Shown here: positions 23,130 to 64,000 of the stretch, in pieces
Layout of the letters: every line of letters begins with the position of its first letter
How positions within the stretch are numbered: position 1 is the first letter of the stretch
Assembly (NCBI GenBank): GCA_041687695.1
Contig: JAWLBL010000001.1
Coordinates: 195,361 to 259,360 of the forward strand
Length of the DNA stretch: 64,000 nt
Direction: 5' to 3'
Source: Myxococcota bacterium
GTDB lineage: Bacteria > Myxococcota_A > UBA9042 > PHBI01 > JAWLBL01
The notes under the pieces: model-generated
The model's input: only the letters and a program-made list of their open reading frames with translations
The model's database searches: none
What the model was told of the DNA's origin: nothing
Position numbers and translations under genes: made by a program

Positions 23130-23549
23130 CTCGGCTCCTTGCAGGGGGAGGGACGGCGACGACGGCGAGGGGCGCCGGCGGGCGGGCGAGCCGCCGGATG
23201 GGGGCGGCCCGGACGAGCGGGTGGCGGAGTGTTTCCCCAAGGGTAACTGCGGCCGAGGGCGGGGTGTCAAGGAGGCGGCCGTCGTCCGCGGACCGGACCG
23301 GTCAGCGGTGGCGGTAGACCCTTCCCGAGTCCGCTGGCCGATTCCGTGGCCCGGTTCCGTGGCTTCGTCGGCGCACCGAGCCCGGTGCCCTGCGAACGGC
23401 CCCCCGGCTCATACACCACTTGACAGGACACTACTCCGCCGTGAGTGGTGAAGCCGGGACCGGGCCCCCACGCACATAGTCCAAGCACCACCTTGGCTAC
23501 TGGGTACCTCTGGGCCTCGCCAGAAGTGGCGAAGCCCCGAGGATCACAC

Positions 23550-23912
23550 CTACCGCTTTGGGTGCATCAGCCGCCACGTCATCGCCTGCACGCGGTCGAG
23601 CAGCGCCAGCGCTTCATCCCCGCGCGCCTTCGGCACCGCGCCCGTCGCGACGAGCAGCCGCATCGCGGCGGACGCCTCGCGACACGAGCCGTAGGCGATC
23701 CTGTAGTGCTGAACCCGGTCACGCCCCGCCCGGCCAGCGCCCTCGGCCAGGTTCAACGGCGTACTTGCGACCGCCCGCACCGCCTGCTCGGCGACGCACC
23801 GCAGTTGCGGACTCACGCCCCGCGTCGATGCCACGACCGCCACCGCCGCCTCGACCGCCAGCGATTCAGCCTGGAGTGAGCTGCCGTTCCGAACCACACC
23901 TTCGTCCTGCAT
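23550..23912 (-). CDS. Four-helix-bundle protein (TIGR02436 / 23S-IVS-like / Avd-like), copy 1
   Basis: QAVRAVASTPLNLAEGAGR and AYGSCRE motifs. The GAAAGGA SD favours ATG 23912 over 23921. Confidence 0.85.
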   Translation of the reverse strand: MQDEGVVRNGSSLQAESLAVEAAVAVVASTRGVSPQLRCVAEQAVRAVASTPLNLAEGAGRAGRDRVQHYRIAYGSCREASAAMRLLVATGAVPKARGDEALALLDRVQAMTWRLMHPKR

Positions 23913-24075
23913 GGGAGCCATCCTTTCGTGTCAGTGGATGCGCCCCCACCCCGCAGGGGTCCCCGGCGGCGTCAAGGGTCGCCGAAGGCGACCGGCGCGC
24001 AGCGCCGGCTTGCCCTTTACGTCGCCGGGGACCACTGCGACCCTCCCGCATCCTCTGACGCGATGGATGGCTCCC
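23913..24075 (+). promoter_or_regulatory. 163-nt branched hairpin, candidate Frpo-like ssDNA promoter (copy 1)
   Basis: Nested inverted repeats GGGAGCCATCC/GGATGGCTCCC, TCGTGTCAGTGGATGCG/CGCATCCTCTGACGCGA and 23953-23972/24019-24038, capped by GAA and GCA triloop hairpins. TTTACG-N17-GACCCT lies on the 3' arm. Confidence 0.6.
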
Positions 24076-24184
24076 TCAGCGACGAGGCCTGTGCCCAGCC
24101 ACCTCAGCGCCCGCCCCACCGCGCAGCGAGCTGCGCGGGCCCTCGAGCACGAGCAAGCTCGTGCAGTCCGGACGCCGCGTCTCG

Positions 24185-24448
24185 ATGACGGCGATGGCCA
24201 CGGCCAAGGCCACGGCCACGGTCTACGGCCACGGTCCACGGCGACGGCCTCGGCCACGGTCTACGGCCTCGGCCTCGGCCTCGGTCTACGGCCTCGGCGA
24301 CGGCCACGGTCTTACGGCCTCGGCGACGGCCACGGCGACGGCCACGGTCCACGGCGACGGCCACGGCCACGGTCTACGGCCTCGGCGACGGCCACGGACT
24401 ACGGCCACGGTCTACGGCCACGGCCTCGGCCACGGCCACGGCCGCGGC
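24185..24448. repeat. Degenerate 6/7-bp tandem repeat (CCACGG/CTACGG/CGACGG/CCTCGG)
   Basis: Directly visible, about 40 units of mixed 6- and 7-nt length. Confidence 0.95.
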
Positions 24449-24610
24449 CCTGATAGCGAATCTGTGCAGCCGAGCCCCTGGACCATGAGGAAGCCTGGAC
24501 CGCCAGCATCCACGCTGCGAGGCGCTTGGTCCCCAACCCCGTTTACCAATCGGGTCTACCGCCGTCCGCGTGGCGAGCGGCGGCCGGACGCTGGACGCGA
24601 GCGGGGCCGC

Positions 24611-24639
24611 TTGACGCGCCGGGAGACGGGGTCGACGGT
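24611..24639 (+). promoter_or_regulatory. Putative promoter of the NTT-HEAT operon
   Basis: TTGACG-N17-GACGGT upstream of ATG 24666. Confidence 0.4.
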
Positions 24640-24665
24640 TCACTCCAACCCCGCCCCCTCGGAAA

Positions 24666-27407
24666 ATGCCCAATCTCCTCGCAGACATACGTCCCGACGA
24701 GCGGCGCGGCGCCCTGCTGGCCTTCGTCACCCTCTTCGGCGTCCTCGCCGGCCACACGCTGCTCGAGACCGGCCGCGACGCGCTGTTCCTCGCCAAGGTC
24801 CCGGCCGACCGGCTGCCCTTCGTGTACCTGGCCATCGCCCTGCTGGCGCTGGCGGTCACGCGCGGGCGGCGGCCCCTGGTCGGCGGTGGCCACGGCCTGG
24901 CCACCTGGCTGGTCGCCTCGGCCTCGGTCACCCTGGGCTTCTGGGCCCTGAGCGCCCTCGAGGCCACCTGGGTGCTCTACGCCCTGTACGTCTGGGCCGG
25001 CCTGTTCGGGACCGTGGCCACGCTGCAGTTCTGGCTGCTCCTGGGCCAGACCTACACCGTCCCCCAGGCCAAGCGCCTGTACGGCTTCATCGGCGCAGGC
25101 AGCGTCCTGGGCGCCGTCTCGGGCGCCTCGCTCGCCAGCCTGGTCACCTCGGCCCTGCCCACCCGCCACGTCCTGCTGGGCGCCGCCGTCGTCTTCCTGA
25201 CCGCCGCCCTCGGCGCCGCCCGCCTGTCGCTGCGCACCACCACCCCGCGCCGCGCCGGGCGCCGCGTCGCGCGCCCGACCCACCCTGGCCGCTCCCCGCG
25301 CGAGGTCCTCGAGTACCCCTACGCGCGCCGCCTGGTCGCCCTGGTCGTCGTTGCGACGCTCACGGTCACCTTCCTCGACTACCTGTTCAAGGCCGAGGTC
25401 TCGCGCACCGTCTCCCCCGAGGGCCTCGGCTCCTTCTTCGCCAACTTCTACGTCGCCCTGAACGGCCTCGCCCTCGTCGTCCAGCTGGTCCTGACCAGCC
25501 GCCTCATCCACCTGCTCGGCGCCCACCGCGCCCTGGTCATCCTGCCCGGCCTGCTGATGCTCGGCGCCGGCGGCCTGCTCGCCGGCGGCGCGCTCGTCGC
25601 GGTCCTGCTCGCCAAGGGCGCCGACGGCAGCCTCCGCCACTCGCTGCACCGCACCAGCCTCGAGGTGCTGTTCATCCCCCTGCCCGAGCGCCTGCGCTTT
25701 CACACCAAGCGCCTCGTCGACGCCGCCGGCCACCGCGGCGCACAGGCCACCGCCTCCCTGCTGCTGCTGGGCCTGCTCGCCGCCGACGCGCCCCTGCCGG
25801 TCTTCGCCGCCGCCATCCTGCTCTTCGCCGCCGGCTGGCTCACCCTCGCCCTGCGCCTGCGCGCCCCCTACCTCGAGCTCTTCCGCGCCCGCCTCCGCGA
25901 GGGCTCCGTCGCCCAGCTCGGCGACGCCCTGCCCCGCCTCGACGGCGACTCGCTCGAGGCCGTCTTCGCCGCCCTCGGCAGCGAGGACCCCGCCCAGGTC
26001 CGCGCCGCCATCGATCTCCTGGCCGATCAGGGCAAGGTCCGCCTCATCCCGGCGGTCCTGCTCCACCACGACTGCCCCGACGTCGTCCTGCGCCTCCTCG
26101 AGCTGTTCGCCGAGGCCGGCCGCCGCGACTTCGTCCCCATCGCCGATCGCCTCGCTCGGACCGCGCCCCCCGACCTGCGCGCCGCCGCCCTGCGCGCCCG
26201 CACCGCCGTCGCCCCCGATCAGCTGCTGCTCCAGCGCTGCCGCGCCGACGAGAGCGCGCTCGTCCAGGCCACGGCCCTGGTGGGCCTCGTCGCCGGCGGC
26301 TGGATGGCCGGGCCCACCGCCCGCGCCGCCCTGGGCGAGGTCGTCCGCCACGGCACCGCCGAGGCCCGCGCCGCGCTCGCCCGCGCCATCGGCTTCCAGC
26401 CGCACGAGATCTTCCACGACGCGCTGCTCGCGCTGGCCAGCGACCCCGCCCTGGCGGTCCGCCGCGAGGTCGCCCGCGCCATGGCCGCCGGCCCCGTCGA
26501 GCGCTTCCTGCCGGCGCTGCTGCCCCTGCTGGCCCACCGCGACACCCGCGCCCCCGCCCGCGACGCGCTGGTCGCCCTGGGCGCGCCCGCCGTCGCCTTC
26601 CTCGGCCACGCCCTGTCCGACCCCGCCCTGCCCCTGCGCGTCCGCCGCCACGTCCCGCGGACCCTGAGCCGCTTCGACACCCGGGCGGCCGCCGATCTCC
26701 TGCTGGCGCGCCTGACGGACGAGCCCAGCGGCATGGTGCGCTACAAGATCCTGCGCGGCCTCGGCCGCATGCGCGCGGTGTCGCCCGAGCTCCCGCTCGA
26801 CCGACGCGTGCTGGCGGCCGCGATGGACCGGACGCTGGAGCTGGCGCTGCAGTTGGCGACCTGGCACCTGGTGCTGACCCGCGGCGGCCAGGACGACCCC
26901 TCGCGCCGCACGCCCGCCCACGAGCTCATCGAGGGCCTGCTGGTCGACAAGAGCCGCCACGCCCTGGAGCGCTTCTTCCGCCTGCTGGGCCTGACGCTGC
27001 CCGGCGAGGACTTCGAGCGCATCCACCGCGGCCTGTTCCACGCCGACCGCGTGGTGCGCGCCTCCAGCCGCGAGCTGCTGGCCCACATCCTCGAGCCGCC
27101 GCTGCGCGACCGGGTGCTGGCCCTGGTCGACGAGGGCGGCGACGAGGCGCTCCTGTCCCGCGCCGGCGCCCTCGAGCGGGCCGAGACGCTGGGGTACGAG
27201 GCGCTGCTCGGCGAGATGCTGGACCACCCCAGCGAGACCCTGCGCTGCCTGGCCGCCTACCACGTGGGCGAGCTGGGCCTCGGGCGCCTCGGGCCGCGCC
27301 TCGAGCAGATGAGGCCGACCCTGGGGGCCGCCAGCGCCCGGGTCGTCGAGCGCGCGCTCAAGCTGCTGGCCCACCCGAACGGCGCCTGGAGGATGCATGA
27401 GGCCTGA
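24666..27407 (+). CDS. Npt1/Npt2 (NTT/TLC) nucleotide-translocase-like transporter with C-terminal HEAT repeats
   Basis: IRPDER, ETGRDALFL, QFW......QAKRLYGFIGAG, DYLFK and LRHSLHRTSLEVLF.P motifs, followed by helical HEAT-like repeats. Confidence 0.85.
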   Translation: MPNLLADIRPDERRGALLAFVTLFGVLAGHTLLETGRDALFLAKVPADRLPFVYLAIALLALAVTRGRRPLVGGGHGLATWLVASASVTLGFWALSALEATWVLYALYVWAGLFGTVATLQFWLLLGQTYTVPQAKRLYGFIGAGSVLGAVSGASLASLVTSALPTRHVLLGAAVVFLTAALGAARLSLRTTTPRRAGRRVARPTHPGRSPREVLEYPYARRLVALVVVATLTVTFLDYLFKAEVSRTVSPEGLGSFFANFYVALNGLALVVQLVLTSRLIHLLGAHRALVILPGLLMLGAGGLLAGGALVAVLLAKGADGSLRHSLHRTSLEVLFIPLPERLRFHTKRLVDAAGHRGAQATASLLLLGLLAADAPLPVFAAAILLFAAGWLTLALRLRAPYLELFRARLREGSVAQLGDALPRLDGDSLEAVFAALGSEDPAQVRAAIDLLADQGKVRLIPAVLLHHDCPDVVLRLLELFAEAGRRDFVPIADRLARTAPPDLRAAALRARTAVAPDQLLLQRCRADESALVQATALVGLVAGGWMAGPTARAALGEVVRHGTAEARAALARAIGFQPHEIFHDALLALASDPALAVRREVARAMAAGPVERFLPALLPLLAHRDTRAPARDALVALGAPAVAFLGHALSDPALPLRVRRHVPRTLSRFDTRAAADLLLARLTDEPSGMVRYKILRGLGRMRAVSPELPLDRRVLAAAMDRTLELALQLATWHLVLTRGGQDDPSRRTPAHELIEGLLVDKSRHALERFFRLLGLTLPGEDFERIHRGLFHADRVVRASSRELLAHILEPPLRDRVLALVDEGGDEALLSRAGALERAETLGYEALLGEMLDHPSETLRCLAAYHVGELGLGRLGPRLEQMRPTLGAASARVVERALKLLAHPNGAWRMHEA

Positions 27408-28305
27408 GACGGACCCCGGCCTGCCCGCCGCGCACGCGGTCCCCCTGATGGAGCGCATGCTCCACCTGCGCGCCCAGCCGCTGTTCGCGGGGCTGTCCTC
27501 GGCGCGGCTGGCGATGGTCGCCGCCGCCACGCGCGAGCGCGCCTACACCCGCGGCGAGCTGGTGCTGGGCGAGGGCGAGCTGCACGACGCCATGATCTTC
27601 GTCGTCAGCGGCGCCGTGCGCCTGAGCCGCCACGGCCGGTTCGTCGACACGGCGGGCCCGGGCGCCGTCGTCGGCGACCTGGGCGTCGTGGTCGGGCCCA
27701 GCGCCGGGCTCGAGGCGCGCGCCGAGACGGCCGCCCTGACCCTGGAGCTGACGCGCGACGGGCTGCTCGAGCTGCTCGAGGAGGACTTCAACCTGCTGCT
27801 CGAGGTCATCCGGCGCACGAGCGGGCAGCTCATCGAGCGGCTGGCCGCGATGGAGGTCGCGCCCATCCTGCCGCCGGCGCCGCGCGCGCCCCTGGCCTTC
27901 CCGGACCGCGAGCTGGATCTGGTCGAGCGCCTGTTCCTCTTGCGCCGCATGCCCGGCTTCACGACCGCGGGCCTCGACGCCCTGAGCGAGCTGGCGCGCG
28001 AGCTCAAGGAGCTGCGCCTGCCGGCCCGCGAGCGCCTGTGGGGCATCGGCGAGCCGGCGGGGCACCTGCTGTTCCTGGCGGGCGGCGACGTCACGTGCCG
28101 CGCGCCCCGGGGTTGGACCACCCTGCGCAGGGGGCTGTCGCTGGTCGGCGCCCTCGAGGCCATCGCCGGCGCGCCCCGCTGGTTCGAGGCGACCACCGCC
28201 ACCGAGGTGGTCGCCCTGCGGGCCGACGTCGACACGCTGCTGGACGTGTTCGAGGACGACGGCGAGACGGCCCTGGGTTTCCTGACCCACCTGGCCAGCG
28301 CCTGA
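27397..28305 (+). CDS. Tandem cyclic-nucleotide-binding domain protein
   Basis: Two ER..LR..P.F..L repeats with EGE/IGE and VG.L motifs. Overlaps the upstream gene (translational coupling). Confidence 0.85.
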   Translation: MRPETDPGLPAAHAVPLMERMLHLRAQPLFAGLSSARLAMVAAATRERAYTRGELVLGEGELHDAMIFVVSGAVRLSRHGRFVDTAGPGAVVGDLGVVVGPSAGLEARAETAALTLELTRDGLLELLEEDFNLLLEVIRRTSGQLIERLAAMEVAPILPPAPRAPLAFPDRELDLVERLFLLRRMPGFTTAGLDALSELARELKELRLPARERLWGIGEPAGHLLFLAGGDVTCRAPRGWTTLRRGLSLVGALEAIAGAPRWFEATTATEVVALRADVDTLLDVFEDDGETALGFLTHLASA

Positions 28306-28342
28306 GCGCCGGACCTCGGGAACGGGCCGATGGTGCCTCGGC

Positions 28343-28650
28343 GACGGGTCGGACCTGTCCCGGCAACAGGTCGGAGCTGTCCCGGCAACAGGTCGGAGCT
28401 GTCCCGGCGACAGGTCGGACCTGTCCCGGCAACGGGTCGGACCTGTCCCGGCAACAGGTCGGACCTGTCCCGGCAACAGGTCGGAGCTGTCCCGGCGACA
28501 GGTCGGACCTGTCCCGGCAACAGGTCGGAGCTGTCCCGGCAACAGGTCGGAGCTGTCCCGGCGACAGGTCGTAGCTGTCCCGGCGACAGGTCGGACCTGT
28601 CCCGGCAACAGGTCGGAGCTGTCCCGGCGACAGGTCGTAGCTGCCTCGGG
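28343..28650. repeat. Intergenic 22-bp tandem repeat (13 full + 1 degenerate units), each containing a palindrome
   Basis: Unit RACAGGTCGGASCTGTCCCGGC, starting at 28343, 28365, ... 28629. Core GACAGGTC-G-GACCTGTC. No spacers. Confidence 0.95.
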
Positions 28651-28700
28651 ACCAGCTCCGACCAGTCTCGAGAGCCAGGTCGGCGCGGTCTCGCGACGGC

Positions 28701-30482
28701 TCAGCGCGACGGCGGGGCGTCGTCCTCGGGGCGCTCGAGGCCGACGACGTGGTAGGTGGTGGCGTCGGTCTGGTAGGCGTGGACGCGCAGCGGGTTGCCT
28801 CGCTCCTTGCCGCTCTGGCCGGCGAAGACGTCGATGACGTGGTAGGCGGGACGCTGCTCGCTGGCGCCGGCGACCTGCGGCAGCAGCAGGCAGACCTCCT
28901 CGCCCAGGCGCCGCGCCACCGGCAGCCGGCCCTGCGGGGCCAGGCCGCGGCCGGCCCACGCGTGGGCCTGGTAGACGCGCTGGGTCGGGTCGACGACGCG
29001 GCCGAAGACGGCGAGATCGCGCAGGCACAGCATCGGCGCGCCCTCGGGGGACGGGCCCAGCGTGGGGCGCGCCAGCGGCGAGACGACCGACAGCCAGCGC
29101 CGCAGCAGCTTGTCGCGCCGGCCGATGAGGATGCGCTTCAGCTCGTCGGGCAGCACGCCCTCGGGCAGGCGCGCCTGCGCGACCAGGGCCTCGACGTGGG
29201 CGTCGGTGAACTCGGCCAGGATGCGCGCCGCCCAGGCGCCGTCGCGCTCGCTGATGCGCGAGAAGGCCGGGTTCGGGTACTCGTTCTTCCAGTCCTCGGG
29301 GTCGAAGGTCTCGACGTCGAAGTAGCCCCAGATCTCGCCGGACGGGCCGAACTCGGCCTGGTCCCAGGGCCGCACCGCGAAGCCCAGGGTCACGACGTCG
29401 GTCAGGATGTCCAGCGGGTCGAAGATGTAGCTGTGCCCGTGGCGCCGCGACAGGCGGTCCCAGGCCCACAGGCTGCCGAAGCTGTCGCCGAAGTCGACGA
29501 AGTTGTGCCGCACGTGCCCGGCGACGGCCGCGTCTTCGGGGGCGTCCTCTGGCAGCGGCTCCTCGATGAACATCGACAGCGTGTTCTGCTCGCGCGAGTC
29601 GAAGTGGTTGACCCAGGCGGCGAACAGGTAGGCGCCGCGCAGCTCGCGGCGGTTCTCGTGGGGGACCACGTCGTTGGGGTCGTCCTTGCGGACGCCCTGG
29701 TAGGTCCACGGCCCCAGGGGCTTGCCCGGCAGAAAGAGGCTGGCCATCGCGCGGTAGCGGCCGTCGGGCATGCGGGTCGCCTTGGACAGCACCTCCTCCA
29801 GGTCCTTGGCGTCGAAGGGGACCTTGCGGCCGGTCGGCAGCTCCTTGTCGGCGTCCTCGGCGATGCGCAGGATGCCCCGGTCGAAGTAGACGACGTTGTT
29901 GCAGGGCGCCCAGTAGCCGGCGGCGTGATAGATGCGCGAGACCACCGCGTCGCCCGAGGTCGCGCGGAACTCCTGCACGTTGCCGTCGAATTTCACGAGA
30001 TAGCGCCGCCCGTCGGCCATCTTCGCCTGAAAGCCCGGGTTCTCGCCGTCGGGCTTGCCGCCGACGATGGTCCAGGGGCCCTCGGTCTCGGGCGGCGGGC
30101 CCTCGCAGGGCCCCTCGGCGACCTCCTCGGGGCTCATCGGCGCGCGGCTCATGCGGTTGACGAACCAGCTGGAGTCGGGGACCTCGTCCCAGGCGTTCAC
30201 GTTGACCGACTCCGCGCCGTAGTCGACCGACAGCAGGCGCGTGGTCGGCCGGGCCAGGCTCTGGTCCAGGAAGTCCCACACGAAGGGCGAGTAGTACTCC
30301 TCGGGCGGCGGCGTGAACGGGGTCTGGTCGGGGTCCTGCCACATCGGCTCCTTCAGCGGAAAGGGCCGCAGCTCGGAGCCGCCGCAGCCGGCGGACGAGG
30401 CGAGGACGAGCAGGGCGAACAGGCCCCGAGCGAGGGCGCGGCCGGCCCGCGGGGCGAGGTGGTGCGCGCGATCAGAACGCAA
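28701..30482 (-). CDS. Lipoprotein with atypical kinase-like (HipA/PI3K/CotH-like) motifs
   Basis: Lipobox LASSAGC. Motifs GGKPDGENPGF, YLVKFD, WVNHFDSREQN and FVDFG. The TTG start overlaps the upstream gene end. Confidence 0.7.
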   Translation of the reverse strand: MRSDRAHHLAPRAGRALARGLFALLVLASSAGCGGSELRPFPLKEPMWQDPDQTPFTPPPEEYYSPFVWDFLDQSLARPTTRLLSVDYGAESVNVNAWDEVPDSSWFVNRMSRAPMSPEEVAEGPCEGPPPETEGPWTIVGGKPDGENPGFQAKMADGRRYLVKFDGNVQEFRATSGDAVVSRIYHAAGYWAPCNNVVYFDRGILRIAEDADKELPTGRKVPFDAKDLEEVLSKATRMPDGRYRAMASLFLPGKPLGPWTYQGVRKDDPNDVVPHENRRELRGAYLFAAWVNHFDSREQNTLSMFIEEPLPEDAPEDAAVAGHVRHNFVDFGDSFGSLWAWDRLSRRHGHSYIFDPLDILTDVVTLGFAVRPWDQAEFGPSGEIWGYFDVETFDPEDWKNEYPNPAFSRISERDGAWAARILAEFTDAHVEALVAQARLPEGVLPDELKRILIGRRDKLLRRWLSVVSPLARPTLGPSPEGAPMLCLRDLAVFGRVVDPTQRVYQAHAWAGRGLAPQGRLPVARRLGEEVCLLLPQVAGASEQRPAYHVIDVFAGQSGKERGNPLRVHAYQTDATTYHVVGLERPEDDAPPSR

Positions 30483-56058: not shown

Positions 56059-56421
56059 TCACCGCTTCGGATGCATCAGCCGCCACGTCATCGCCTGCAC
56101 GCGATCCAGCAGCGCCAGCGCTTCGTCCCCGCGCGCCTTCGGCACCGCGCCCATCGCGACGAGCAGACGCATCGCGGCCGACGCCTCGCGGCACGAACCG
56201 TAGGCGACCCGGTAGTGCTGAACCCGGTCACGCCCCGCCCGGCCAGCGCCCTCGGCCAAGTTCAGAGGAGCACTCGCGACCGCCCGCACCGCCTGCTCCG
56301 CGACGCACCGCAGTTGCGGACTCACGCCGCACGTCAAGGTCACGACTGCCGCCGCCGCCTCGACCGCCAGCGATTCAGCCTGGAGGGAGCTGCCGTTCCG
56401 AACCACACCTTCGTTCTGCAT
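56059..56421 (-). CDS. Four-helix-bundle protein (TIGR02436/Avd-like), copy 2
   Basis: Differs from copy 1 at 8 of 120 aa, with the same motifs and SD. Confidence 0.85.
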   Translation of the reverse strand: MQNEGVVRNGSSLQAESLAVEAAAAVVTLTCGVSPQLRCVAEQAVRAVASAPLNLAEGAGRAGRDRVQHYRVAYGSCREASAAMRLLVAMGAVPKARGDEALALLDRVQAMTWRLMHPKR

Positions 56422-56585
56422 GGGAGCCATCCTTTCGTGTCAGTGGATGCGGCCCACCCCGCAGTCGACGCCGGTGGCGTCAAGGGTCGCCGAAGGCGAC
56501 CGGCGCGCAGCGCCGGCTTGCCCTTTACGCCACCGGGGTCGACTGCGACCCTCCGCGCATCCTTCTGACGCGATGGATGGCTCCC
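56422..56585 (+). promoter_or_regulatory. Branched hairpin, candidate Frpo-like ssDNA promoter (copy 2)
   Basis: Same fold. The stem 56461-56480/56527-56546 carries compensatory substitutions relative to copy 1. TTTACG (56524)-N17-GACCCT (56547) is conserved. Confidence 0.6.
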
Positions 56586-56693
56586 TCAGCGACGCGGCCT
56601 GTGCCCAGCCCACATCAGCGCCCGACCCATCGCGCAGCGAGCTGCGCGATCCGCAAGCACGAGCAAGCTCGTGCAGTCCAGACGGAGCCTCGC

Positions 56694-56946
56694 GATGACG
56701 GCGATGGCCAAGGCCAAGGCCACGGCCACCGCCTACCGCGACGGCCACGGCCACGGTAAGCGGCCACGGTTCACGGCCCCGGCGACGGCCACGGCCACGG
56801 TCCACGGCCACGGCCCACGGCCACGGACTACGGCCACGGCCACGGCCCACGGCCACGGTCCACGGCCACGGCCCACCGCGCACGGCCCACCGCCCCACCG
56901 CCCACGGCCACGGCCCACGGTCCACGGCCACGGCCCACGGTCCACG
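56694..56946. repeat. Degenerate (CCACGG)n 6/7-bp tandem repeat
   Basis: Directly visible. The unit order differs from copy 1 after the first ~30 nt. Confidence 0.95.
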
Positions 56947-56994: not shown

Positions 56995-58913
<1,919 letters not shown>

Positions 58914-63647: not shown

Positions 63648-64000
63648 CCTGGGATCGCCGGCTTCCAGAGGCTGTCGTATGGACGCCGCCGAAGGCGGCC
63701 TTGGAGTGCTCCAGCTTGCTGGAGCCCTGATGCGGCGCAGCTTGCTGCGCCGGGACGGCGGCCATGCCCCGGCGGCAAGCCGCCGGCGTTGGGGCGCGAG
63801 CAAGCTCGCGCACTCCGAGTTGGCTCGTCGCGACACCCTCTTCCAGCCGGCCGGGAAGCTGAGGTGCGCCGCCTGGGATCGCCGGCTTCCAGAGGCTGTC
63901 CTATGGACGCCGCCGAAGGCGGCCTTGGAGTGCTCCAGCTTGCTGGAGCCCTGATGCGGCGCAGCTTGCTGCGCCGGGACGGCGGCCATGCCCCGGCGGC
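63648..64000. repeat. 224-bp tandem repeat of nested REP-like palindromes (REPIN/BIME-like), truncated at the window end
   Basis: Units start at 63648 and 63872. Each has GGAGTG-hairpin(GCTTGC) ... hairpin(GCAAGC)-CACTCC in inverted orientation, plus inner hairpins. Confidence 0.9.

What the first reader, a model, noticed from the sequence alone, without database searches (positions are those of the whole stretch)
23913..24075. Covarying branched hairpin with the geometry of an Frpo-type single-stranded-DNA promoter
Seen: in the 20-bp inner stem (23953-23972/24019-24038 vs 56461-56480/56527-56546) three pairs change on both arms between copies (G-C to C-G, T-A to A-T, C-G to T-A), which indicates selection on pairing. 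The tips are C-GAA-G and C-GCA-G triloops on the + strand, which is the template strand of the gene. On the folded + strand the 3' arm reads TTTACG (opposite CGTCAA)-N17-GACCCT. A TGn precedes the -10-like hexamer, and the hexamer lies in an unpaired bubble facing the gene. In normal dsDNA the sense strand has TTGACG but GGGGTG at the -10 position. The SD (GAAAGGA) lies within the basal stem region. Established: GNA triloops are extra-stable in DNA, and Frpo promoters of plasmid leading regions work only when ssDNA folds. Inference: the gene is expressed only when its DNA is single-stranded (transposition, transfer or replication stress).
Basis: partly seen in the sequence, partly recalled or inferred. 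Interest (0 to 1): 0.85.

Follow-up and report, generated by a model that had tools for sequence, protein, structure and literature searches.

The report
Promoter-shaped DNA hairpin in mobile cassette
A long branched hairpin in front of a small four-helix-bundle gene is conserved in two bacterial phyla, belongs to a small mobile cassette, and looks as if it folds on the gene's template DNA strand into a ready-opened promoter, though no experiment has tested this.

Summary
Window 23913-24075 is a ~165-nt hairpin (z -9 to -12) abutting the ATG of a minus-strand PF05635/TIGR02436 gene ("IVP").

The genome holds 4 full copies and 2 decayed ones. Relatives in Myxococcota and Acidobacteriota MAGs share one layout: short tandem-repeat array, long covarying stem, invariant GTCAAGG/CCTTGAC helix, tip of mini-hairpins, bubble, basal stem holding SD/ATG.

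Three asymmetries point to the template (antisense) strand as the folding strand:
- Wobble-type mismatches: 100 antisense against 19 sense.
- C(GNA)G triloops: 15 against 1 of 33.
- Promoter-like reading: TTGAC-N17-(T)A..., paired through -12, with A at -11 opening a 7-18-nt bubble. The sense arm is G-rich there.

I rank it first at about 0.4; it is unproven.

Against it:
- The -10 is weak. T at -7 occurs in 4 of 33 clusters, and a consensus scan of the window finds 0 promoters.
- No RNA data exist.
- Copies show no replication-strand bias (13 against 10).
- The cassette is chromosomal and not on a plasmid. In one MAG it is a MITE-like element with inverted ends and 8-bp target duplications.

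Rivals: an outward dsDNA promoter, an RNA leader, and an ssDNA mobility or priming site.

The parts
23550..23912 (-). IVP gene (120 aa + stop): 23S rRNA intervening-sequence protein / four-helix-bundle family
   Evidence: PF05635 E 7e-12. TIGR02436 E 6.7e-13. Profile hit to PDB 2gsc XCC0516, E 1.8e-14. 4 intact copies in the genome.
23913..24075 (+). Long branched hairpin; the + strand (template strand of the gene) is the strand that appears to be selected for folding
   Evidence: Folds. Covariation. Strand asymmetries.
23921..23927 (-). Shine-Dalgarno GAAAGGA of the IVP gene, inside the basal stem
23971..23977 (+). GTCAAGG half of the invariant helix. On the sense strand it reads CCTTGAC, which contains the TTGAC -35-like box
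   Evidence: Motif pair found (at most 1 mismatch each) in 107 of 149 gene hits with at least 150 nt of upstream sequence; CC, A and C nearly invariant in 33 clusters.
23978..24008 (+). Tip: two mini-hairpins with C(GAA)G and C(GCA)G triloops on the + strand
   Evidence: C(GNA)G on the antisense strand in 15 of 33 mini-hairpins against 1 of 33 on the sense strand (28 clusters).
24016..24021 (+). -35-like TTTACG on the 3' arm of the folded + strand (TTGAC in most relatives)
24039..24044 (+). -10-like GACCCT. G24039 (-12) is paired; A24040 (-11) is the first base of the 7-nt bubble 24040-24046; TG at 24036-37
   Evidence: A at this position in 24 of 33 clusters on the antisense arm against 2 of 33 on the sense arm (one of those 2 is a reversed duplicate). 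Bubble starts at -12/-11 in 19 of 25 clusters.
23943..23951 (+). C-rich opposite side of the bubble (CCCCCACCC); G-rich on the sense strand
24106..24180 (.). REP-like pair of small GC hairpins between the big hairpin and the repeat array
   Evidence: About 58 of 71 matches in the genome are to this part alone.
24188..24449 (.). Tandem 6/7-nt repeat array (ACGGCC/GGCCAC type)
   Evidence: TRF period 6, 42 copies. 37 such arrays of at least 90 nt in the genome, 6 beside IVP cassettes. Arrays of other units lie upstream of the hairpin in relatives.
23470..24560 (-). Approximate extent of the whole repeated cassette (~1.1 kb): left end, array, REP-like hairpins, big hairpin, IVP gene, terminator-like hairpin, right end
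   Evidence: Copy-to-copy blastn and printed ends. Boundaries are approximate, and no target duplication was seen in this genome.
56062..56594 (-). Second copy in the window: gene 56062-56421, hairpin 56422-56594; its array lies at 56698-56946

Best explanation
The hairpin is a DNA-level element of a small mobile cassette that carries the IVP gene. When the template (+) strand is single-stranded, it folds back on itself.

In the folded form, as read from the sequence:
- The mini-hairpins at the tip could start the folding (inferred).
- GTCAAGG pairs with CCTTGAC (CCCTTTAC in this window) to give a duplex -35 box.
- A covarying 17-bp stem sets the spacing.
- The duplex ends at -12.
- From -11, an A on the non-template arm, the two arms are deliberately non-complementary. 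This gives a 7-18-nt pre-opened bubble.
- The arms then pair again for about 20-25 bp, forming a downstream duplex that contains the SD and start codon.

Inferred mechanism: host sigma-70-type RNA polymerase would bind this mimic of an open promoter. It would copy the 5' arm and run on into the IVP gene. The predicted start is near 23938-23941 on the minus strand.

In ordinary duplex DNA the IVP side has a -35 but only a G-rich non-promoter sequence at -10, so the gene would be silent there. In duplex DNA the good boxes point away from the gene.

Shown here: the structure, its conservation, its strand asymmetry, and the promoter-like geometry.

Inferred, not shown: polymerase binding, single-strand dependence, and the source of the single-stranded DNA.
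For: 1. Conserved layout. 19 of 107 genomes of the class carry the gene. 199 related stretches were found in one-genome-per-species contigs, titled Myxococcota/Deltaproteobacteria, Acidobacteriota, Holophagae and Thermoanaerobaculia. The same layout appears in the folds.

2. Pairing is selected. 75.6% against 38.5% re-partnered. 18 of 23 pairs are compensatory.

3. The antisense strand is the folding strand. Isolated transition mismatches give a wobble on the antisense strand 100 times and on the sense strand 19 times, with 73 transversions, in 69 unique hairpins. In the -35 to -12 region, counted once per cluster, position and type, the figures are 36 against 10. The antisense strand folds better in 49 of 71 hairpins with RNA parameters and 47 of 71 with DNA parameters. 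C(GNA)G triloops: 15 of 33 antisense against 1 of 33 sense.

4. Promoter geometry on the antisense arm over 33 clusters. TT 33 of 33, G 27, A 32 and C 30 of TTGAC. After 17 nt: T in 16 of 33 at -12 and A in 24 of 33 at -11. On the sense arm A at -11 occurs in 2 of 33 and G dominates. The bubble starts at -12/-11 in 19 of 25 clusters, with median length 11-13 nt on both arms.

5. Tip length varies from 22 to 65 nt. The two half-sites therefore keep a fixed relation only in the folded form.

6. No conserved target for the outward reading. The stretch to the left has indels of 14 and 25 nt between copies, and neighbouring genes have mixed orientation.

7. In this genome the 2 of 6 copies that lost the inner hairpin are also the two without an intact gene.

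8. A more distant IVP subfamily (L051, 33% identity) shows the same TTGCGG-N18-GATCCT (antisense) against G-rich (sense) pattern, by my reading.

9. ssDNA promoters of this logic exist: Frpo1 and Frpo2 of plasmid F (passages of PMC9849209 and PMC11541004).
Against: - The -10 is weak. T at -7 occurs in only 4 of 33 clusters. The usual hexamers are TACNCG, GACCCT and CATCCG. TGn is not conserved.
- The consensus scan finds 0 sigma-70 promoters on either strand of window 23300-24700.
- There is no transcript evidence of any kind.
- The same boxes form a normal outward promoter in duplex DNA.
- Copies show no uniform orientation relative to GC skew in the one MAG where this could be tested: 13 leading against 10 lagging of 23. 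Replication is therefore not an obvious source of single strands.
- There is no plasmid or leading-region context.
- The cassette has inverted ends and 8-bp target duplications in MAG G107, which suggests a duplex-DNA transposition route.
- CC before TTGAC is invariant. A -35 box alone does not explain this.
- Counts come from related copies and are not independent. 42 of 149 gene hits lacked the motif pair at my threshold: some have variants, and some (L074, L089, L101) have only a short SD-sequestering hairpin.
Confidence: 0.4

Rival explanations
1. Ordinary duplex-DNA promoter region. The TTGAC-N17-TAnnnn on the antisense strand is a normal promoter that fires outward, away from IVP, through the repeat array and out of the cassette. 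It would resemble the outward promoters of insertion sequences. The mirror-image arm and the palindrome would exist for another reason, such as concerted evolution of an inverted duplication, or a cruciform or protein-binding site.
For: The boxes are read directly from duplex sequence. In Acidobacteriota the mirrored arm keeps an SD and often an ATG. The cassette is a mobile element, and mobile elements often carry outward promoters (recalled).
Against: - It does not explain why the 17-nt spacers of the two arms are identical and covary.
- It does not explain why mismatches favour one strand, or why the triloops are GNA on one strand only.
- It leaves IVP with no -10.
- No conserved ORF lies on the outward side: indels of 14 and 25 nt, and 6/7-nt unit mixing in the window's array.
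- Neighbouring gene orientation is mixed.
- The -10 is as weak for this reading as for the main one.
Confidence: 0.18
2. RNA leader. The whole hairpin is transcribed in the sense direction from a promoter further upstream. It sequesters the SD and start codon, and is opened or cut (for example by RNase III, as for the stems of 23S rRNA intervening sequences that carry IVP genes) to allow translation.
For: The sense RNA fold is very stable (-127 kcal/mol, z -8.9), and the SD/ATG lie in the basal stem in all lineages. IVS stems around IVP ORFs are RNase III substrates (passages of PMC4990558). Short SD-sequestering hairpins occur in some relatives (L074, L089, L101).
Against: - Wobble mismatches favour the other strand by 100 to 19, and 36 to 10. 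On the sense RNA these positions are A.C mismatches.
- The loops read UUC/UGC on the sense RNA, which are not stabilising motifs (recalled).
- There is no Rfam match.
- The sequence-invariant TTGAC with fixed 17-nt spacing to the bubble has no role in this model.
- No upstream sense promoter was seen (for the window only).
Confidence: 0.1
3. A single-stranded-DNA site that serves the element itself and not gene expression. Candidates are a priming site (ssi/sso-like, where RNA polymerase makes a primer on a folded strand) or a strand-specific recognition hairpin for an HUH (Y1) transposase or another nuclease.
For: The strand-specific folding signals are the same as for the main model. The genome has 11 Y1_Tnp matches, 10 of them over the curated cut-off, and more than 50 REP-like hairpins. 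On the sense strand the conserved TA reads (G/A)TAG next to the stem in many Acidobacteriota copies, which resembles the REP GTAG (recalled). Frpo also primes DNA synthesis, according to the title of Masai and Arai 1997, cited in PMC11541004; I did not read that paper.
Against: - The GTAG reading puts the signal on the strand that is not favoured for folding.
- The cassette ends in MAG G107 are classic inverted repeats with 8-bp duplications. These are not the hairpin ends without duplications expected of IS200/IS605 elements (the expectation is recalled).
- The hairpin always sits immediately at the IVP start, with the SD in the downstream duplex, which suggests a link to expression.
Confidence: 0.14
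4. Protein-binding palindrome. The invariant GTCAAGG/CCTTGAC helix is an operator or structure-specific site, for example for the IVP pentamer itself, giving autoregulation on a cruciform or hairpin.
For: CC before TTGAC is invariant (33 of 33), which is more than a -35 box requires. IVP relatives are toroidal pentamers, and Avd-type members bind nucleic acids (the PDB hit is; the binding property is recalled).
Against: The variable distance between half-sites (22-65 nt) argues against a dimeric duplex operator. The model does not explain the fixed 17-nt spacing to a bubble that opens with A. It is not exclusive of the main model.
Confidence: 0.08

Closest known systems
Frpo / ssi single-stranded DNA promoters of conjugative plasmid leading regions (F Frpo1, Frpo2; ColIb-P9)
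   Same: A long imperfect hairpin on the template strand, immediately upstream of the gene it would drive. Promoter boxes are re-formed by intrastrand pairing. The polarity means the non-template 3' arm reads from tip to base and the polymerase runs on into the gene. The duplex form is inactive for that gene. The F Frpo2 region folded here as a control also gives a ~300-nt hairpin (z -6.4). Properties of Frpo were taken from passages of PMC9849209 and PMC11541004.
   Different: - No sequence similarity to any plasmid record and no IVP homologue on plasmids.
- Chromosomal and multi-copy, inside a MITE-like cassette.
- The -10 is non-canonical, whereas Frpo is described as re-forming canonical boxes.
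- Shorter: about 165 nt against about 300.
- A sharply defined bubble from -11.
- Activity is untested.
- I could not place the boxes of Frpo2 in my control fold, so the fine geometry was not compared.
Single-strand origins that recruit RNA polymerase (ssoA of rolling-circle plasmids; minus-strand origin of filamentous phages)
   Same: Folded ssDNA that mimics a promoter for host RNA polymerase (recalled, not read here).
   Different: Those make short primers and are not followed by an SD and ORF. No rolling-circle Rep gene or phage context is present here.
23S rRNA intervening sequences carrying an IVP/S23p ORF (Leptospira, Coxiella, Xanthomonas relatives)
   Same: The same protein family. 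A long inverted-repeat stem is associated with the ORF. Short tandem repeats of variable number lie just upstream of the ORF: heptamers GACAGAT in Coxiella (passages of PMC4990558). Long suspected to be a selfish or mobile element (same paper).
   Different: There the stem encloses the ORF, lies inside rRNA and acts as an RNase III substrate in RNA. Here the hairpin lies wholly upstream, the loci are intergenic, and the strand signals point to the template DNA strand.
MITEs / mobile insertion cassettes (non-autonomous elements with inverted ends and a passenger gene)
   Same: In MAG G107 the ~870-bp unit has 22-bp ends (identical at 17 of 22). It has exact 8-bp target duplications at nAACGTTn-like sites in 4 of 6 copies examined and a 7-of-8 match in one more. 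There are 27 protein matches in that genome and no transposase inside the unit.
   Different: The passenger is an IVP gene with an elaborate internal hairpin and repeat arrays. In the window's own genome only subterminal inverted similarity (16 of 20) was seen, and no duplication.
REP elements and RAYT / IS200-IS605 hairpin ends
   Same: GC-rich hairpins acting strand-specifically on ssDNA. Y1 transposase genes are present.
   Different: These hairpins are much larger and branched, carry promoter-like boxes, and the cassette ends are of a different kind.

Membership tests
Frpo/ssi-type ssDNA promoter | Stable long stem-loop formed by the single (template) strand just upstream of the driven gene | tested here: met
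   conserved and covarying; antisense strand favoured.
Frpo/ssi-type ssDNA promoter | Pairing re-forms canonical -35 and -10 boxes at promoter spacing (as described in PMC9849209 passages) | tested here: inconclusive
   -35 TTGAC is near-invariant, the 17-nt spacing is conserved, and -12T/-11A are frequent (16 of 33 and 24 of 33). But T at -7 occurs in only 4 of 33 clusters. The window copy scores 6 of 12 against consensus, and the consensus scan finds 0 promoters.
Frpo/ssi-type ssDNA promoter | Transcription by host RNA polymerase only from the single-stranded form | not testable with these tools
   No RNA holder listed; needs in vitro transcription or strand-specific delivery.
Frpo/ssi-type ssDNA promoter | Location on the transferred strand in the leading region of a conjugative element | tested here: not met
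   Chromosomal intergenic sites among housekeeping-type genes. No plasmid homologues.
Frpo/ssi-type ssDNA promoter | Sequence homology to known Frpo/ssi | tested here: not met
   blastn (word 11) of the hairpin against 72,556 plasmid records, F included: no match.
PF05635 / TIGR02436 (23S rRNA IVP, four-helix-bundle protein) | Profile match over the curated cut-off | tested here: met
   45.9 bits against cut-off 33.8; TIGR02436 48.8 bits against 24; PDB 2gsc E 1.8e-14.
Structured RNA family (Rfam) | Match to a curated covariance model | tested here: not met
   0 matches at gathering score in the whole window.
RNase III-processed IVS-type stem / RNA leader | Structure selected on the transcribed (sense) RNA: G.U tolerated, A.C avoided | tested here: not met
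   Sense-strand wobbles 19 against antisense 100; 10 against 36 per cluster and position.
MITE / mobile insertion cassette | Terminal inverted repeats and target-site duplication around a multi-copy unit without a transposase | tested here: met
   For MAG G107: ends identical at 17 of 22; 8-bp duplications exact in 4 of 6 copies, 7 of 8 in 1, and 1 copy lacks the right end. For the window's genome the result is inconclusive.
REP/RAYT or IS200/IS605-type ssDNA hairpin | Small hairpins at the element ends, no target duplication, conserved tetranucleotide on the processed strand | tested here: inconclusive
   Y1_Tnp genes are present. A GTAG-like motif is seen only on the sense strand, by my reading. 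The element ends are of TIR/TSD type in G107.

The most novel reading that the evidence does not exclude
IVP cassettes are a widespread class of small mobile elements in Myxococcota and Acidobacteriota. Their only gene would be transcribed solely from folded single-stranded template DNA, through a built-in pre-melted sigma-70 promoter (duplex -35, 17-bp spacer, fork junction at -12/-11, bubble, downstream duplex).

This would be the first ssDNA-gated promoter family outside plasmid leading regions and phage or plasmid origins. It would imply that the enigmatic 23S-rRNA-IVP / Avd-like four-helix-bundle proteins act when their own DNA is single-stranded, for example during uptake, transfer, repair, or a still unknown ssDNA stage of the element.
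Probability: 0.35. Interest if true: 0.9.

Novelty: new variant of a known kind. Interest (0 to 1): 0.75.

Why it matters
- Single-stranded-DNA promoters are known from a few plasmid and phage systems and have recently become central to how plasmids beat host defences on entry. A second, unrelated, chromosomal and cross-phylum family would show that the principle is general. It would also offer a clean natural design (fork junction plus pre-opened bubble) for studying initiation.
- It would give the first functional handle on the PF05635/TIGR02436 family. This family is very common, is multi-copy in many genomes, is found inside rRNA intervening sequences, is related to the Avd protein of diversity-generating retroelements, and has no known role outside those retroelements.
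- Whatever the mechanism, the work defines a previously undescribed cassette architecture (array, hairpin, IVP gene, with inverted ends and target duplications in one MAG). This architecture breaks assemblies and can be annotated.
- My four literature searches returned no paper whose listing or read passages describe this hairpin or this cassette.

Tried and rejected
- Rfam: 0 matches in the window.
- Expression data: no RNA holder listed. Only two DNA runs hold 6% of the sampled words.
- Replication-strand test in the window's own genome: GC skew was too noisy on the contigs.
- Replication-strand test in MAG G107: the skew is clean, but copies split 13 on the leading strand against 10 on the lagging strand, of 23 placed. 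Copies within a contig are nevertheless co-oriented (22 of 23), which I cannot explain.
- cDNA/retroelement idea (antisense ssDNA made by a reverse transcriptase): no PF00078 match in the 99%-complete genome.
- Operon or neighbour idea: the downstream gene is co-directional in 6 of 6 copies in this genome, but in the other genomes my crude gene calls give 18 co-directional, 34 convergent and 36 with no call, of 88. Rejected as a general rule.
- Coding role for the repeat arrays or the outward ORF: rejected. Units of 6 and 7 nt are mixed, there are 14- and 25-nt indels between copies, and array orientation and unit differ between copies.
- Plasmid link: none.
- Defence-system models: none.
- F plasmid control: AP001918 is not held. 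NC_002483 was fetched and the Frpo2 region folded, but I could not locate its boxes with confidence, so no fine comparison was made.
- One alignment was too divergent for the locus scan; a narrower one was used instead.
- 42 of 149 gene hits had no motif pair at my threshold and were left out of the strand counts.
- The 33 clusters include one reversed duplicate (L127) and a few doubtful motif placements (L169, L077, L132 second hit).
Full report
**1. What is in the window**

The + strand 23913-24075 is one long imperfect hairpin of about 75 pairs. From base to tip it has:
- a basal stem;
- a 7 x 9-nt internal bubble;
- a 20-bp inner stem;
- a short helix GTCAAGGG/CCCTTTAC;
- a tip of two mini-hairpins.

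It folds far better than shuffled sequence on either strand and with either parameter set (z -8.9 to -12.1). It abuts the ATG (23910-23912) of a minus-strand gene, 23553-23912. That gene is a PF05635 / TIGR02436 four-helix-bundle protein, called IVP here. Its closest solved relative by profile is XCC0516, PDB 2gsc. The SD lies in the basal stem.

**2. Copies in this genome**

The genome is 8.0 Mb in 63 contigs.
- Four full hairpin-plus-gene copies exist.
- Two further copies have lost the inner hairpin cleanly. One of them has a frameshifted gene and the other has no gene.

The repeated unit is about 1.1 kb, roughly window 23470-24560. In gene orientation it runs: left end; a 6/7-nt tandem array; a REP-like pair of small hairpins; the big hairpin; IVP; a terminator-like hairpin; right end.

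Arrays of the same hexamer type occur 37 times in the genome, and only six lie beside IVP cassettes. The REP-like module alone accounts for about 58 of the 71 matches.

**3. Relatives**

IVP homologues occur in 4 of 18 genomes of the order and 19 of 107 of the class, often in many copies and at contig ends. A scan of one-genome-per-species contigs found 199 related stretches. The 80 kept are titled Myxococcota/Deltaproteobacteria, Acidobacteriota, Holophagae and Thermoanaerobaculia, plus a few with other labels.

Folding the upstream regions shows the same plan everywhere:
- a tandem array, whose unit differs by genome;
- a long stem;
- GTCAAGG;
- one to three mini-hairpins;
- CCTTGAC;
- a stem;
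- a bubble;
- a basal stem containing the SD and start.

Of 149 gene hits with at least 150 nt of upstream sequence, 107 have the GTCAAGG...CCTTGAC pair with at most one mismatch each. These give 71 unique hairpins and 33 clusters at 80% identity. The other 42 include close variants (for example CAAGG/CCTTGC) and some genuinely different, shorter hairpins.

**4. The pairing is selected**

In the 18 columns after the box, the two arms are complementary at 75.6% of positions within a hairpin. When arms are re-partnered between clusters the figure is 38.5 +/- 2.1% (maximum 46.2% in 1000 shuffles). Each column uses three or four different Watson-Crick pairs. RNAalifold on 24 diverse sequences predicts this stem, and 18 of its 23 pairs show changes on both sides.

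**5. Which strand folds**

Three signals that do not depend on any promoter idea agree.

(a) Transition mismatches. An isolated transition mismatch in a stem is a G.T/G.U wobble on one strand and an A.C mismatch on the other. In 69 unique hairpins there are 100 wobbles on the antisense strand, 19 on the sense strand, and 73 transversions. Counted once per cluster, position and type in the -35 to -12 region, the figures are 36 against 10. Base composition of the arms is balanced, and transcription-linked deamination would predict the opposite bias (inference).

(b) Fold stability. The antisense strand folds better in 49 of 71 hairpins with RNA parameters and in 47 of 71 with DNA parameters.

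(c) Triloops. The only asymmetric part of a mini-palindrome is its loop. C(GNA)G occurs in 15 of 33 mini-hairpins on the antisense strand and in 1 of 33 on the sense strand. Sequences of the GCGAAGC type are recalled to be exceptionally stable as DNA; I did not read this here.

These signals argue against a sense-RNA leader. They favour a single-stranded template-strand structure, most simply DNA. An antisense RNA would need a promoter outside the cassette.

**6. Promoter-like geometry**

Read 5' to 3' from tip to base, the antisense 3' arm gives CC-TTGAC-N, then a 17-nt paired spacer. Next comes T (16 of 33) that is still paired, then A (24 of 33) as the first unpaired base, then a C-rich unpaired stretch. 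The sense arm has G or T at the A position (A in 2 of 33, one of which is a reversed duplicate) and is G-rich after it.

The bubble begins at -12/-11 in 19 of 25 clusters. It is 7-18 nt long on both arms, with median 11-13. This is about the span of an open complex (recalled). After the bubble the arms pair again for 20-25 bp.

In Acidobacteriota that downstream duplex is ATGAACGACCCGGAGGTGACCATG on the gene side, so a start at the usual distance falls on or next to the first ATG. In the window the predicted start is near 23938-23941, about 27 nt before the ATG and upstream of the SD.

The polarity is right. The non-template arm runs from tip to base, and the template arm continues into the gene's template strand. 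This is the logic of Frpo, which is described as a stem-loop that re-forms -35 and -10 boxes, is active only while the DNA is single-stranded, and is required for early leading-gene expression in vivo (passages of PMC9849209, PMC11541004, PMC6294495).

**7. Weak points**

- The -10 is far from TATAAT. T at -7 occurs in 4 of 33 clusters.
- TGn is not conserved.
- A consensus scan finds no promoter on either strand in the window.
- In duplex DNA the same boxes make a promoter that fires away from IVP. I cannot exclude that this is their job. However, nothing conserved lies that way, neighbours are mixed, and this reading leaves unexplained the mirror arm, the covarying spacers and the strand asymmetries.
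- CC before TTGAC is invariant, which hints at an additional or different reader of that helix.

**8. Where would single strands come from?**

This is unknown.
- There is no plasmid link.
- No reverse transcriptase was found.
- In the Holophagae MAG G107 (27 matches) GC skew is clean, yet copies are 13 on the leading and 10 on the lagging strand. Lagging-strand exposure is therefore not favoured.
- Copies within a contig are almost always co-oriented (22 of 23). This is unexplained.

**9. The cassette is mobile**

In G107 the ~870-bp unit ends in GGTTCATCCGG...CGTGAG and its inverted counterpart (17 of 22 identical). It is flanked by exact 8-bp duplications of an nAACGTTn-like target in 4 of 6 copies examined, with a 7-of-8 match in a fifth. 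A variable 7-nt array lies near its right end. It is therefore a MITE-like insertion cassette with a passenger gene.

In the window's genome only subterminal inverted similarity was seen. Short tandem repeats of variable number directly upstream of an IVP ORF, and an inverted-repeat stem, are also described for the Coxiella rRNA intervening sequence (passages of PMC4990558). Arrays and stems therefore seem to travel with this gene family.

**10. Verdict**

The hairpin is real, conserved and selected. The evidence favours function on the template DNA strand. The Frpo-like ssDNA promoter is the best single explanation, at about 0.4. By context and sequence this is not a member of the Frpo family, and at most it works like one. 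The rivals are listed with their tests.

Papers: I saw only search listings and passages found by term in the five papers named above. Masai and Arai 1997 and the other classical work are recalled or cited second-hand.

Noticed in passing
window 24106-24180 (and 56600-56680): A REP-like pair of small GC-rich hairpins (GCACGAGCTTGCTCGTGC and GCGCAGCTCGCTGCGC). About 58 of the 71 genome matches are to this module alone, often next to hexamer arrays. The genome also has 11 Y1 (HUH) transposase matches.
   Followed up: partly
window 24188-24449 and 56698-56946; genome-wide: There are 37 arrays of at least 90 nt of GGCCAC/ACGGCC-type hexamers, mixed with 7-mers, in the genome. Every relative genome has its own unit (GGACTC, CGGAAC, GCAGCG, 13-mers and others) beside its IVP cassettes. 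Their origin and role are unknown.
   Followed up: partly
window 28251-28734: A 22-nt tandem repeat (CGGCAACAGGTCGGAGCTGTCC), about 14-15 copies at 92% match, lies between two long ORFs. Each unit is partly self-complementary with its neighbours (66-nt super-period).
   Followed up: no
window 58139-58290: A 15-nt tandem repeat (GGCCAACGACCCGCC, about 6 copies), probably coding a proline-rich pentapeptide repeat.
   Followed up: no
window 63648-64000: Two 129-nt direct repeats, 224 nt apart and 99% identical, at the edge of the window.
   Followed up: no
L137, L141, L142, L157, L162 (MAG G107): An IVP cassette bounded by 22-bp inverted ends with 8-bp target duplications at nAACGTTn. The flanks are themselves AACGTT-rich short repeats, as if the element targets a repeated motif. 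A variable CATTTCT heptamer array lies near the right end.
   Followed up: partly
G107 contigs C9, C6, C2, C1, C4: IVP copies on one contig almost always share orientation (22 of 23), even across a GC-skew switch on C9. Orientation does not track replication direction.
   Followed up: partly
G000 C10:98696-99143 and C8:87130-87219: Two decayed copies have lost exactly the inner palindrome (between ...TCGCAG and GGGGTGGGG...). This looks like palindrome excision.
   Followed up: partly
window 23943-23951 / 24040-24046: On the sense strand both sides of the bubble are G-runs (GGGAGGG and GGGGTGGGGG), and they are C-runs on the template strand. A G-quadruplex or i-motif across the bubble is conceivable but untested.
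   Followed up: no
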